This document shows, piece after piece, positions 36,290 to 40,111 of a DNA stretch of 64,000 nt. The stretch is from Octopus vulgaris (Eukaryota): positions 57,846,001 to 57,910,000 of the forward strand of contig OX597820.1 in assembly GCA_951406725.2 (NCBI GenBank), read 5' to 3'. Below the pieces are notes generated by a model, which was not told the origin of the DNA, searched no databases, and saw only the letters and a list, made by a program, of their open reading frames with translations. The stretch's first letter is position 1. Each line of letters opens with the position of its first letter. Both the position numbers and the translations under genes were made by a program.

Positions 36290-36545
36290 TGCCGACCCCC
36301 AGGACATTTATTTTTAAGCCTAGTGCTTATTCTATCGGTCTCTTTTTCCGAACCGCTAGGCTACGGAGACGTAAACACACCAACACCGGTTGTCATGTGG
36401 TGATAGGAGGACAAGCACAGACACAAGGACACACACACATACATACACACACACGCGCACACACTCACATACACACACATGTACGCGCGCGCACACACAC
36501 ACACACACACATATATACGACAGGCTTCTTTCAGTTTCTGTCTAT
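36290..36545 (-). mobile_element. SINE family B, partial
   Basis: Matches the reverse complement of the body of 44169-44587. Confidence 0.82.
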
Positions 36546-37121
36546 TGACAGTAGAGATGGAAATCCACTCCATCACTATTGAGGATTGGTACATGAAAAA
36601 ATGAACGCACCCATATACAGCTTAGCTGCAGCTACGACAGGAGATCAAGCTTTCCATATATAGCGATATAGCGCCAAAAATTTGTGAAGATCAAGGTGTA
36701 CCTAATATCCATTACAATTCGCCTTCAGAAATGGAAGAACTCTTGCAGCAACTATCTACTAAAGTTGCTATACTGCAGCAATAGTACAACTGATGCTATC
36801 TGCAGGGCCACTCCTAGTGTAAGACATATAACCGGCTCGCTCAGAACTTACCCGCTAAAATGCTTATCAAACAATCGACATCCCGACGATAAAATCTGAT
36901 GGATGCGGGCGGATGGCCCCATCCACAACACAGACATATCCCCACGTAATTACGTTGTTCATGAAATACAGTACAACAAATAACACGATTCGACTTTTAT
37001 ACACCAGAATCAAAGAATATCTCCAAACATAAACATCATCTTCCAAATGATACTTTAAAAGGTACCAGGACATGAACAAAGAAATCGTAGCCACAGTTAA
37101 ATCAATGGAAGTAATATCTGT

Positions 37122-37329
37122 TACGGAGATGTACTTGCATAGTAAGTGATTTGATCTGAGATCGTGTGCTGAAACGAAAACAATTGCAGCGTGTAGGTGT
37201 TTGTAAGCCATTTAAGAAACACACAAAAGCTGTTCGATTCACTTCAACATTTAAGTTTAATTTGTCAAAATATTTTCGTCGCTTTAAGACCGCGACCTGT
37301 TCACTGACAAAAATCCGTGCTGCATCATC
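37122..37329 (-). mobile_element. ~208-bp non-coding mobile unit carrying a G3:C8 HHR-shaped motif (family H1)
   Basis: Flanked by the 12-bp direct repeat AGTAATATCTGT (37110-37121 and 37330-37341). Motif at 37261-37311. Homologous to 38881-39072 and 39405-39596. Confidence 0.72.
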
Positions 37330-38352
37330 AGTAATATCTGTAGCCTGCAGTTAAAAGAAGCCAAGCCGTTATGATCGGCAAGACTAGAATTAGCATCAAG
37401 TGCTACTATAAAGTACAAAGTGATAATTTATTTCAGTTATACATTCATTGTAGAGTGGTTGTATCATGACCACCTTAACAGTGTATTTAGGAAACACCTT
37501 AAAAATTTTCTTATTTATTAAAGTATATCATCATTAGGTTTTAAGTTTAATTTCTATCCTTTTTCTAAATGTTGAATTAAATTTTCTCAATTTTATATAA
37601 TAATATGAATTACTACCTCTCGTATCCCTCAATTCTAATTTCCACCCTTAAAGCTTATATTACTTATCTCTTTTGTTTTACATTACATTCTCCTTTATTT
37701 AACAATCTAATTAGGTATTGGCCACCCCTAACTTCCCTTGTTCTAGTTACCACCTCTTCCCTACCAGTCATTCTCTTAATAGCAGCTCTGCGATATATTT
37801 TTAAGTAGATAAAGTAAGATATATGGTCCCAGTACAATGAGTGTCTGGAAGATAGTCTGACATTAATTGATTTATCACTATCACTTGATAACTCCCAATG
37901 GATTTAATTCTAAGTGGTTGAAGACTATATACTGTATAAAATTTTCTAAACATAAATAACTATGTCACCACTCATTTATATTTAACCCCCACTATTTTCC
38001 CTGTTACTCTCTAAATTATAGTAGGCTTAATAATATATGCAATATTTTCTAAATTCATTCTGCCACAGATATAACATAAGAAACAATGTGATTATTTTGC
38101 TTTCTGATATTGATATAAATTTGTTTAAAATGGTTTATCCTTTATGTTTGAAATCTATATGGTCATCTGCATCCTAAGAGAGCAGTTTCTTTCAAATTGA
38201 TGTAAAGTTTTCATTTATCAATTATATGGAGCCGCTTGAAACAGCCGTAATTATGTATTGACACTTTACATACTTGTTACTTATTTACATTATATATATA
38301 TAATGCAGCATGAAGTTTTGTCAGTGAACAGGTCGCTGCAATTGTTATACAT

Positions 38353-38407
<55 letters not shown>

Positions 38408-38410
<3 letters not shown>

Positions 38411-38830
38411 TTTTATTCTTTTACTTGTTTCAGTCATTTGACTACAGCCATGTTGGAGCACCGCCTTCAACGGTCTTAGTCGAACAAATCGACCCCAGGA
38501 CATTTCTTTTTAAGCCTAGTGCTTATTCTATCGGTCTCTTTTTCCGAACCGCTAGGCTACGGAAACGTAAGCACACCAACGCCGGTTGTCATGCGGTGAT
38601 AGGAGGACAAGCACAGACGCAAAGAGACACACACACACACACATACACACATACATGCATACACACACGCACATACATACACACACATATACGACAGGCT
38701 TCTTTCAGTTTCTGTCTACCATATCGACTCGACAAGGCTTTGGTCGGCTCGAGGTTATAGTAGTTGACACTTGCCCAAGGAACCATATGGTTGGGAAGCA
38801 AGCTTCTTAGCACACAGCCACGCCTGCGCC
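38408..38830 (-). mobile_element. SINE family B (left arm of palindrome)
   Basis: Near full-length B sequence on the minus strand. Confidence 0.87.
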
Positions 38831-39092
38831 TACACACATAAACACAATCATATATACATATATATATATATATATATACATTACAGAGATGTACTTGCAT
38901 AGCAAGTGACTTGATCTGAGATCGTGTGCTGGAACTAAAACAATTGCAGCGTAGAAGGTGTTTATAAGCAATTTAAGAAACACACAAAAACCGTTAGATT
39001 CACTTCAACATTTAAATTTAATTTGTCAAAATATTTTCGTCGCTTTGAGACCGCGACCTGTTCACTGACAAAACTTCAATGCCGCACGAAGT

Positions 39093-39143
39093 TTTGTCAG
39101 TGAACAGGTCGCGGTCTCAAAGCGACGAAAATATTTTGACAAA
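39093..39143 (+). ncRNA. Type I hammerhead-shaped motif with G3:C8 core (also 39022-39072 -, 39334-39384 -, 39405-39455 +, 37261-37311 -)
   Basis: TTTGTCA-GTGAACA-G-GTCGC-GGTCTCAAA-GCGAC-GAAA-ATAT-T-T-TGACAAA: 7-bp stem I, 5-bp stem II, palindromic stem III. Confidence 0.65.
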
Positions 39144-39175
39144 TAAAATTTAAATGTTGAAGTGAATCTAACGTG

Positions 39176-39301
<126 letters not shown>

Positions 39302-39640
39302 CACGTTAGATTCACTTCAACATTTAAATTTAATTTGTCAAAATATTTTCGTTGCTTTGAGACCGCAACCTGTTCACTGACAAAACTTCGTGCTGCATTG
39401 AAGTTTTGTCAGTGAACAGGTCGCGGTCTCAAAGCGACGAAAATATTTTGACAAATTAAATTTAAATGTTGAAGTGAATCTAACGGTTTTTGTGTGTTTC
39501 TTAAATTGCTTATAAACACCTTCTACGCTGCAATTGTTTTAGTTCCAGCACACGATCTCAGATCAAGTCACTTGCTATGCAAGTACATCTCTGTAATGTA
39601 TATATATATATATGTATATATGATTGTGTTTGTGTGTGTA

Positions 39641-40060
39641 GGCGCAGGCGTGGCTGTGTGCTAAGAAGCTTGCTTCCCAACCATATGGTTCCTTGGGCAA
39701 GTGTCAACTACTATAACCTCGAGCCGACCAAAGCCTTGTCGAGTCGATATGGTAGACAGAAACTGAAAGAAGCCTGTCGTATATGTGTGTGTATGTATGT
39801 GCGTGTGTGTATGCATGTATGTGTGTATGTGTGTGTGTGTGTGTCTCTTTGCGTCTGTGCTTGTCCTCCTATCACCGCATGACAACCGGCGTTGGTGTGC
39901 TTACGTTTCCGTAGCCTAGCGGTTCGGAAAAAGAGACCGATAGAATAATCACTAGGCTTAAAAAGAAATGTCCTGGGGTCGATTTGTTCGACTAAGACCG
40001 TTGAAGGCGGTGCTCCAACATGGCTGTAGTCAAATGACTGAAACAAGTAAAAGAATAAAA

Positions 40061-40063
<3 letters not shown>
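39641..40063 (+). mobile_element. SINE family B (right arm of palindrome)
   Basis: GGCGCAGGCGTGGCTGTGTG head through to the GAAACAAGTAAAAGA tail. Confidence 0.87.

Positions 40064-40111
<48 letters not shown>

What the first reader, a model, noticed from the sequence alone, without database searches (positions are those of the whole stretch)
37110..37341. Mobile ~208-bp unit with a G3:C8-swapped hammerhead core (H1)
Seen: full hammerhead topology (7-bp stem I UUUGUCA/UGACAAA, 5-bp stem II, GAAA, palindromic AAUAUU stem III), but the core reads GUGAACA instead of CUGANGA. Exactly positions 3 and 8 are exchanged while U4, G5, A6 and A9 are kept. There are five complete copies plus a deleted one at ~38310-38345, and this copy has a 12-bp direct repeat on both sides. 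Established: C3:G8 is a tertiary Watson-Crick pair, and compensatory double substitution restores cleavage in vitro. Inference: a retrozyme-like family that CUGANGA-based searches would miss. Caveats: the UUU triplet is weak, stem III is minimal (dimerisation probably needed), and some 3:8 variants are already known in PLE HHRs.
Basis: partly seen in the sequence, partly recalled or inferred. Interest (0 to 1): 0.85.

Follow-up and report, generated by a model that had tools for sequence, protein, structure and literature searches.

The report
Swapped-core hammerhead in octopus retrotransposon repeat
The 208-base unit is the end repeat of an octopus Penelope-like jumping gene, present in thousands of copies, and it carries a hammerhead ribozyme fold in which two paired core letters are swapped (G-C, where related elements have C-G or U-A), so it is likely a natural variant of a self-cutting RNA that standard searches would miss, although cutting is untested.

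Summary
The hammerhead anatomy, the 3/8 swap and the 12-bp target duplication are real. The window holds three insertions, not five: four motifs are mirror images in a 1.75-kb palindrome. The unit is not a retrozyme circle. It is the pseudo-LTR of an autonomous Penelope-like element (RT plus C-terminal GIY-YIG). Full elements carry it at both ends, and its last 90 nt are the ORF start. The genome has 5,932 exact G3:C8 cores, 91.5% of 6,482 matches in that context. Copies show the PLE signature: two 3' ends, inverted arms and TA-rich targets. Only 1 of 91 arms starts near the cleavage site. In nine families linked by ORF homology, positions 3:8 are Watson-Crick in all nine (5 C:G, 3 U:A, 1 G:C); one weak non-pairing match was set aside. 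This natural covariation supports a real, selected pair. Cleavage is untested. I found no natural G3:C8 hammerhead in seven literature searches, but a key survey (Lunse 2017) was not held. This scan noted G3-C8 candidates before, in two other genomes (unchecked notes). Verdict: new variant of a known kind.

The parts
37122..37329 (-). Solo pseudo-LTR (208 nt) of a Penelope-like element, long-end form
   Evidence: the same sequence flanks the RT/GIY-YIG ORF in L183 and L184
37110..37121 (+). Target-site duplication, left copy (12 bp)
37330..37341 (+). Target-site duplication, right copy (12 bp)
37261..37311 (-). Minimal type I hammerhead motif
37298..37304 (-). Core positions 3-9; G3 at 37304, C8 at 37299
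   Evidence: sequence; covariation
37297..37297 (-). Extra G between position 9 and G10.1, present in all 9 homologous families
   Evidence: extra nucleotide described in PMC4209133
37278..37296 (-). Stem II (5 bp) and loop II; the loop varies between subfamilies while the stem does not
37268..37277 (-). GAA, palindromic 6-nt stem III and U17; predicted cut between 37268 and 37267
37122..37211 (-). First 30 codons of the PLE ORF (ATG at 37209-37211); frameshifted in this copy after codon 6
   Evidence: translation compared with L184
37122..37180 (-). 'Tail' between the two preferred 3' ends (unit ~150 and ~208); the inner boundary is approximate
   Evidence: 44 and 46 of 95 arms
38300..38346 (+). 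Internally deleted short-end copy (unit 2-38 joined to 139-151)
38882..39073 (-). Long arm (unit 18-208) of an inverted-pair insertion
39079..39172 (+). Inverted arm (unit 5-98) with a full hammerhead; U17 at 39136
39305..39398 (-). Mirror image of 39079-39172 in the palindrome
39404..39595 (+). Mirror image of 38882-39073 in the palindrome
38361..40110 (.). 1.75-kb fold-back palindrome (arms 98.4% identical) that doubles the inverted pair

Best explanation
The unit is the pseudo-LTR of an octopus Penelope-like retrotransposon, and it carries a minimal type I hammerhead fold whose 3:8 core pair is G:C where relatives have C:G or U:A, so it is likely a working but weak self-cleaving RNA (cleavage untested). 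Shown: the pLTR-ORF-pLTR layout, the copy counts, the two 3' ends, the inverted arms and the covariation. Inferred, by analogy with the anole PAc element: a transcript starts at the pLTR 5' end; the element's protein nicks AT-rich DNA and primes reverse transcription at two internal sites, about 30 and 90 nt into the ORF, on uncleaved RNA. Priming on the first pLTR would give the thousands of solo copies, priming on the last would give ORF-bearing copies, and priming on both target strands would give inverted pairs with one long and one short end. Inferred: the hammerhead needs a partner (a second pLTR pairing through the palindromic stem III) or the element's protein, and it would act at another step, such as trimming tandem or read-through transcripts or controlling translation of the ORF that begins 56 nt after the cut.
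For: The unit lies on the ORF strand at the 5' end and runs into the ORF in L154, L159, L162 and L176. It lies at both ends in L183 and L184, and 3' of the element's 3' UTR in 28 of 30 loci picked by that UTR. The ORF has weak RT and GIY-YIG matches: RVT_1 in 6 and GIY-YIG in 2 of 29 aligned relatives, and GIY-YIG at E 2.6e-4 for this family. There are 5,932 G3:C8 cores against 182 non-G3 and 368 G3/non-C8. In 56 loci picked by core pattern, 46 of 95 arms end at 200-208 and 44 at 140-155; 37 of 56 loci have an inverted arm, 34 of these 37 pair a long with a short end; and 50 of 95 arms abut TA repeats. This matches the PLE tail and inversion signature (PMC8557442; PMC11167929). In 9 ORF-linked families, 3:8 is Watson-Crick in 9 of 9 (permutation p 0.002), and stems I, II and III covary too. 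Other octopus pLTR-like motifs have C3:G8 in the same flanking context (L262, L270). The engineered C3G/G8C double mutant partly restores cleavage in a PLE hammerhead.
Against: No cleavage, RNA ends or expression were shown. Copies come from uncut RNA, so I see no genomic trace of cleavage. The monomer stem III costs about 5 kcal/mol to close and the UUU triplet is weak (triplet ranking recalled). Published PLE hammerheads cleave slowly even as dimers, and in PAc cleavage was not needed for insertion in vitro. About 2% of cores read G3:G8, and some share subfamily markers, so a mismatched core may have transposed. The permutation p treats related families as independent; the tree leaves the base unresolved. 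One weak non-pairing match (L244 = L246, A3:C8) was left out of the nine. Pfam found nothing for the 677-aa query itself.
Confidence: 0.72

Rival explanations
1. It is the same pLTR, but the hammerhead-derived fold no longer cuts; it is kept as a protein-binding or translation structure, or it simply hitchhikes.
For: Insertions derive from uncut RNA. G3:G8 cores are 2-3.6 times more frequent than background C>G decay predicts and are enriched in an old subfamily (5 of 53). PAc catalytic mutants still insert in vitro.
Against: U4, G5, A6, GAA and a non-G at position 17 are kept in 9 of 9 families, while position 7 and the loops vary. The 3:8 pair was re-formed after what needs two transversions, and it belongs to the active core geometry (established knowledge). 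Subfamily differences fall in loop II, and one stem I change keeps a G-U pair.
Confidence: 0.2
2. It is a non-LTR retrozyme: a non-coding unit cut to monomers by the hammerhead, circularised and reinserted.
For: The size fits 170-400 nt retrozymes. One locus has a 5-unit tandem (L005/L021). A 2026 preprint derives animal retrozymes from pLTRs.
Against: The unit is contiguous with an RT ORF and contains its ATG. Tandem units are separated by variable TA repeats, not a constant junction. The ends map to a fixed 5' start and two tail sites, not to the cut site.
Confidence: 0.05
3. The fixed 5' end of solo copies marks a splice acceptor rather than a transcription start (a rival on one step only).
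For: In full elements the unit is preceded by a CTAAC branch-point-like motif, a pyrimidine tract and AG. In D. virilis Penelope an intron ends at helix I.
Against: 24 of 52 arms keep the AG, 18 of them with G in place of the parental C just before it, which fits a capped start at that A; no shared upstream exon is seen. Part of these G's also belong to the target duplication or the inversion junction, so the cap argument is only suggestive.
Confidence: 0.25

Closest known systems
Minimal type I hammerheads in pLTRs of Penelope-like elements (Cervera and de la Pena 2014, PMC4209133)
   Same: Type I topology, extra nucleotide between 9 and 10.1, G10.1:C11.1, short palindromic stem III, located in both pLTRs, mostly dispersed single copies, natural U3:A8 covariation known.
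   Different: The pair is G3:C8; none of the rows of their Fig. S3 (56 motifs) has G3. The extra nucleotide is G (their consensus is H), and stem I is longer (7 bp).
PAc (Poseidon of Anolis carolinensis; Frangieh et al. 2024, PMC11167929)
   Same: Hammerhead at the pLTR-ORF junction, two internal RT start sites early in the ORF that define a tail, AT-rich targets, uncut RNA as template; the engineered C3G/G8C mutant is partly active.
   Different: Here the swap is the natural family state, the ATG is 56 nt after the cut rather than in stem II, the tail is about 58 nt rather than 30-40, and there is a cysteine linker before the endonuclease.
Non-LTR retrozymes (Cervera and de la Pena 2020, PMC7229834; Li et al. 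2026, 10.64898/2026.07.22.740005)
   Same: About 200-nt dispersed unit with a type I hammerhead, related to a PLE pLTR.
   Different: Not a head-to-tail non-coding repeat. It contains the ORF start, has PLE tail ends and inverted arms, and shows no constant circular junction.
Natural U3:A8 hammerheads (Perreault et al. 2011, PMC3088659)
   Same: Natural covariation of the tertiary 3:8 pair.
   Different: U3:A8 needs two transitions; G3:C8 needs two transversions and reverses the purine and pyrimidine.

Membership tests
Penelope-like element (C-terminal EN+) | Single ORF with RT followed by GIY-YIG endonuclease | tested here: met
   L184 ORF with one stop and one frameshift; GIY-YIG E 2.6e-4, just under the curated cut-off; RVT_1 in 6 of 29 and GIY-YIG in 2 of 29 relatives; RT match in the PDB at E 4.6e-4. 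The matches are weak but consistent.
Penelope-like element (C-terminal EN+) | Direct pLTRs flanking the ORF | tested here: met
   L183 and L184
Penelope-like element (C-terminal EN+) | Inverted 5'-truncated arms, optional tail, AT or microsatellite targets | tested here: met
   37 of 56 loci inverted; two 3' ends; 50 of 95 arms next to TA repeats
Penelope-like element (C-terminal EN+) | Clade (Neptune, Nematis, Poseidon, Hydra) by RT phylogeny | not tested
   No reference sequences could be put in the tree. The CX3CxxC linker resembles the Neptune/Nematis linker described in PMC8557442, but the RT motif differs from the GxAMG-type rows seen there.
PLE minimal type I hammerhead | Three-stem junction with U4 G5 A6, GAAA and a U16.1-H17 site | tested here: met
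PLE minimal type I hammerhead | Watson-Crick 3:8 pair | tested here: met
   G3:C8; covariation in 9 of 9 families
PLE minimal type I hammerhead | Literal CUGANGA (or UUGANAA) consensus | tested here: not met
   5,932 G3:C8 cores; the 12 C3:G8 matches in this context belong to other repeat families. This is what makes it a variant.
PLE minimal type I hammerhead | Extra nucleotide at 9/10.1, G10.1:C11.1, palindromic stem III | tested here: met
   9 of 9, 9 of 9 and 8 of 9 families
PLE minimal type I hammerhead | Self-cleavage after position 17 | not testable with these tools
   No assay; only assembled contigs were available
Non-LTR retrozyme | Non-coding head-to-tail tandem units with a constant junction | tested here: not met
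   ORF start inside the unit; TA spacers between tandem copies
Non-LTR retrozyme | Abundant circular RNA monomers | not testable with these tools
   No raw RNA reads were offered

The most novel reading that the evidence does not exclude
This is a natural, catalytically active hammerhead with an inverted G3:C8 core pair, not reported before and fixed in a retrotransposon family with over 10,000 arms in one animal genome. Together with C:G and U:A relatives in the same clade, it would show that the 3:8 pair is freely exchangeable in nature and that consensus-based ribozyme counts miss whole families. In the boldest form (about 0.2), a minority of G3:G8 copies records a mismatched intermediate that still transposed on the way from C:G to G:C.
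Probability: 0.5. Interest if true: 0.65.

Novelty: new variant of a known kind. Interest (0 to 1): 0.5.

Why it matters
The 3:8 swap has been made in the laboratory, and U3:A8 is known in nature. Here is a high-copy natural G3:C8 with a phylogenetic series (C:G, U:A, G:C) at homologous positions. It argues that selection acts on the catalytic geometry of PLE hammerheads, whose role is still open because cleavage was dispensable for insertion in vitro. It gives a natural set of alleles for testing that role, and a concrete reason to rerun genome ribozyme surveys (including PLE clades said to lack hammerheads) with any Watson-Crick pair at 3:8. The element itself is an ordinary kind of PLE, so the gain is specialist rather than broad.

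Tried and rejected
(1) The first ORF found upstream of a copy (L088/L091) belongs to a different, Neptune-like family: 28 of its 29 other copies have no unit within 1.5 kb, and the one that does (L150) has only an inverted fragment at the locus edge. It was joined secondarily and is rejected as the parent. (2) P0047 proved to be the same family as P0001 and added nothing. (3) Rfam gave only microsatellite and hairpin noise in the 150 rows shown. (4) Expression: no RNA holder listed. Four runs were laid as contigs only; they cannot show starts, ends, strand or level. No splice joint and no pile-up of ends appeared, which is no evidence either way. Loose-end consensus strings in runs of organisms B, C and D include the G3:C8 core, a hint only. 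(5) G3:G8 as an evolutionary intermediate is not established. It makes up 37 of the first 100 G3/non-C8 matches (my count), about 2% of cores, against 25 of 4,210 background and 8 of 696 in the same trinucleotide context. It carries an old loop marker in 9 of 20 copies against 0 of 26. However, the marked subfamilies are mostly G3:C8 (85 of the first 100 of 243; 47 of 53). (6) The 1.85-fold excess of a downstream motif (10,962) over the core motif is explained by decay and scattered 5' truncation, not by copies starting at the cut site. (7) Antisense matches inside the ORFs of L241 and L249 and the A3:C8 match in L244/L246 (32-nt stem II region, no palindromic stem III, 1.4 kb after the ORF) were treated as chance. 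(8) Three papers were not held: Lunse 2017, Przybilski and Hammann 2007, Arkhipova 2017. Supplement file 1 of PMC4209133 was not searchable, and bioRxiv supplements are closed; any of these could list a natural G3:C8.

Full report
OBSERVATION. The unit 37122-37329 is flanked by an exact 12-bp duplication. The core 14-mer occurs 6 times exactly in the window. The copy count needs correcting. Only one full unit is present. The other four full motifs are one inverted-pair insertion (unit 18-208 against unit 5-98) doubled by a 1.75-kb palindrome at 38361-40110, with 8 mismatches and one 6-nt gap in 875 bases. I cannot tell whether that palindrome is biological or an assembly fold-back.

COPIES IN THE GENOME. 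The genome is 2.8 Gb, and a 96%-identical protein is labelled Octopus vulgaris. Exact 20-mer patterns give 5,932 G3:C8 cores, 182 with another base at 3, and 368 with G3 but another base at 8; the reversed-pattern controls gave 0. G3:C8 is therefore the family state (5,932 of 6,482). I examined 56 loci picked by core pattern (60 fetched, 4 dropped as the second arm of the same insertion; 30 of them were picked for a non-G3 base). Of 95 arms, 46 end at unit 200-208, 44 at 140-155 and 5 elsewhere. 37 of 56 loci have an inverted arm, and 34 of these 37 combine a long and a short end. 50 of 95 arms abut TA repeats and 34 more abut AT-rich DNA. Among 27 single full-length copies, 21 have a 7-23-nt direct repeat (many inside TA runs), one a 5-nt repeat, and 5 none. 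A second sample of 37 loci picked by a downstream motif, pooled with 26 of the first, gave 91 arms: 50 start at unit 12 or earlier, 32 at 13-59, 1 at 60-66 and 8 later. The predicted cut is at 62/63, so the templates were uncut.

THE PARENT ELEMENT. Four loci shared sequence upstream of the unit. That flank is a 3' UTR: 28 of 30 loci picked by it carry the unit just downstream, and further upstream lies an RT-GIY-YIG ORF. Searching with the RT gave loci where the unit sits 5' on the same strand and continues into the ORF (L154, L159, L162, L176). L183 and L184 have the layout pLTR-ORF-3'UTR-pLTR, with G3:C8 in each intact pLTR. The ORF starts inside the unit, at position 119. Domain matches are weak: nothing in Pfam for the 677-aa query, RVT_1 in 6 and GIY-YIG in 2 of 29 relatives, and one RT structure at E 4.6e-4. 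Layout, tail, inversions and target choice match the PLE descriptions in PMC8557442 (passages) and PMC11167929 (parts 1-2 of 4). The clade was not determined.

IS THE 3:8 PAIR REAL? Copies of one family cannot answer this, because they decay neutrally; relatives can. A sister octopus family (P0001, 56% identical, intact 1,312-aa frames, copies about 99% alike) has the homologous motif in both pLTRs with C3:G8 and C9. A metagenome scan gave 31 relatives. I searched the 18 that extend past the ORF with a pattern free at 3, 7, 8 and 9: 7 had a clear motif, 2 (one sequence) had a poor A3:C8 match that I set aside, and 9 had none. In the nine families, 3:8 is C:G in 5, U:A in 3 and G:C in 1, all Watson-Crick (permutation p 0.002). 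Pairs 10.2:11.2, 10.3:11.3, 15.2:16.2 and 2.1:1.1 also covary in 9 of 9, and the dimer-only pair 15.3:16.3 in 7 of 8. U4-G5-A6, the extra G and G10.1:C11.1 are invariant, and position 7 takes all four bases. The p values ignore kinship. The RT tree puts this family in one clade (96/100), scatters U:A in three places, and leaves the base open (18 rows, with a partial outgroup). Twelve genomic matches with C3:G8 in the same flanking context belong to other repeat families, among them L262 and L270, which share the stem II sequence and the inner 5' bases of stem I. These were selected on C3:G8, so they are not counted as covariation, but they make C:G the likely ancestral state. Within the family, subfamily differences fall in the 5' leader, loop II and the downstream part, plus one stem I change that keeps a G-U pair (part of the core was fixed by the selecting pattern).

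AGAINST, AND OPEN. Nothing here shows cleavage. Closing stem III in the monomer costs about 5 kcal/mol. PLE hammerheads were slow even as dimers (PMC4209133), and the PAc hammerhead cut only with protein and was not needed for insertion. G3:G8 cores are about 2% of copies, 2-3.6 times background, and linked to an old subfamily that is nevertheless mostly G3:C8. This could be a mobilised mismatch, either an intermediate or a tolerated loss, or context-dependent mutation; I do not claim it. The fixed 5' end may be a capped start (24 of 52 arms keep the AG, 18 with a preceding G) or a splice acceptor, since a branch-point-like motif and pyrimidine tract precede it. Read data were contigs only and decide nothing.

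MECHANISM. Shown: identity as a pLTR, ends, arms, targets and covariation. Inferred from PAc: internal priming at two sites on uncut RNA, on the first pLTR of a transcript for solo copies, and on both nicked strands for long-plus-short inverted pairs. Inferred from PMC4209133 and PMC6765202 (passages): cleavage as a dimer through the palindromic stem III, or with protein help, to process tandem or read-through transcripts. A role in translation is a lead only: type I hammerheads in viral 5' UTRs promote cap-independent initiation (PMC13725137, passages), and here the ATG is 56 nt after the cut.

LITERATURE. Natural U3:A8 is reported in PMC3088659 (passages) and PMC4209133 (parts 1-2 of 4; supplement file 2, parts 1-2 of 3); no row of its 56-motif alignment has G3. 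G3:C8 appears only as an engineered mutant in PMC11167929, PMC8495972 (one passage) and PMC3884650 (passages). Searches found no natural case and no description of this octopus family. I also saw passages of PMC7229834, PMC6155905, PMC6962438 and PMC10085705, and part 1 of 5 plus passages of 10.64898/2026.07.22.740005. Lunse 2017 (about 150,000 PLE variants, figure recalled), Przybilski and Hammann 2007 and Arkhipova 2017 were not held, and Repbase and Dfam could not be checked, so 'unreported' is provisional. The scan's own notes hold two earlier G3-C8 candidates behind PLE-like RTs in other genomes (unchecked), and none for this sequence or genome.

VERDICT. It works like, and by every feature testable here except the literal consensus belongs with, the minimal hammerheads of Penelope-like pLTRs. 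It is not a retrozyme. It is a new natural core variant with unusually good comparative support and no activity data. Interest 0.5.

Noticed in passing
L204:58 and L204:4646 (G000:C17:6331579-6336951): The sister PLE family is very young (about 99% identical copies, many intact 1,312-aa frames with an Asn-rich insert), and its hammerhead has C in place of A9; L231 also has C9, together with U3:A8.
   Followed up: partly
L124-L152: A separate young Neptune-like PLE family (over 2,000 candidates, about 98% identity) with a long 3' region; no hammerhead scan of its terminal repeat was done.
   Followed up: no
L260-L271: Several further octopus pLTR-like motifs with canonical C3:G8 cores and mostly non-palindromic 6-nt stem III regions; their ORFs were not traced.
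   Followed up: partly
window 38361-40110: A near-perfect 1.75-kb palindrome centred on a CT/AT/AG microsatellite, which also duplicates a neighbouring common repeat; biological fold-back or assembly artefact.
   Followed up: partly
window 36490-37110: The DNA into which the main copy inserted looks like a decayed coding stretch (open runs broken by stops), possibly an older retroelement; not identified.
   Followed up: no
L005/L021 (G000:C27:31279955-31283637): Five near-full units in direct tandem separated by TA repeats, the only multi-unit array seen; a natural context for dimer cleavage.
   Followed up: no
L183:2700-2722 and L092 upstream of the unit: A branch-point-like motif, pyrimidine tract and AG directly before the pLTR, reminiscent of the Penelope 5' intron.
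   Followed up: partly
L193:2131 and L195:624: Unrelated canonical-core hammerheads with long stem II loops near PLE copies, probably from other PLE families.
   Followed up: no
L184:5680-7320: The element's 3' UTR contains an expandable TACA-type repeat region that varies in length between copies.
   Followed up: no
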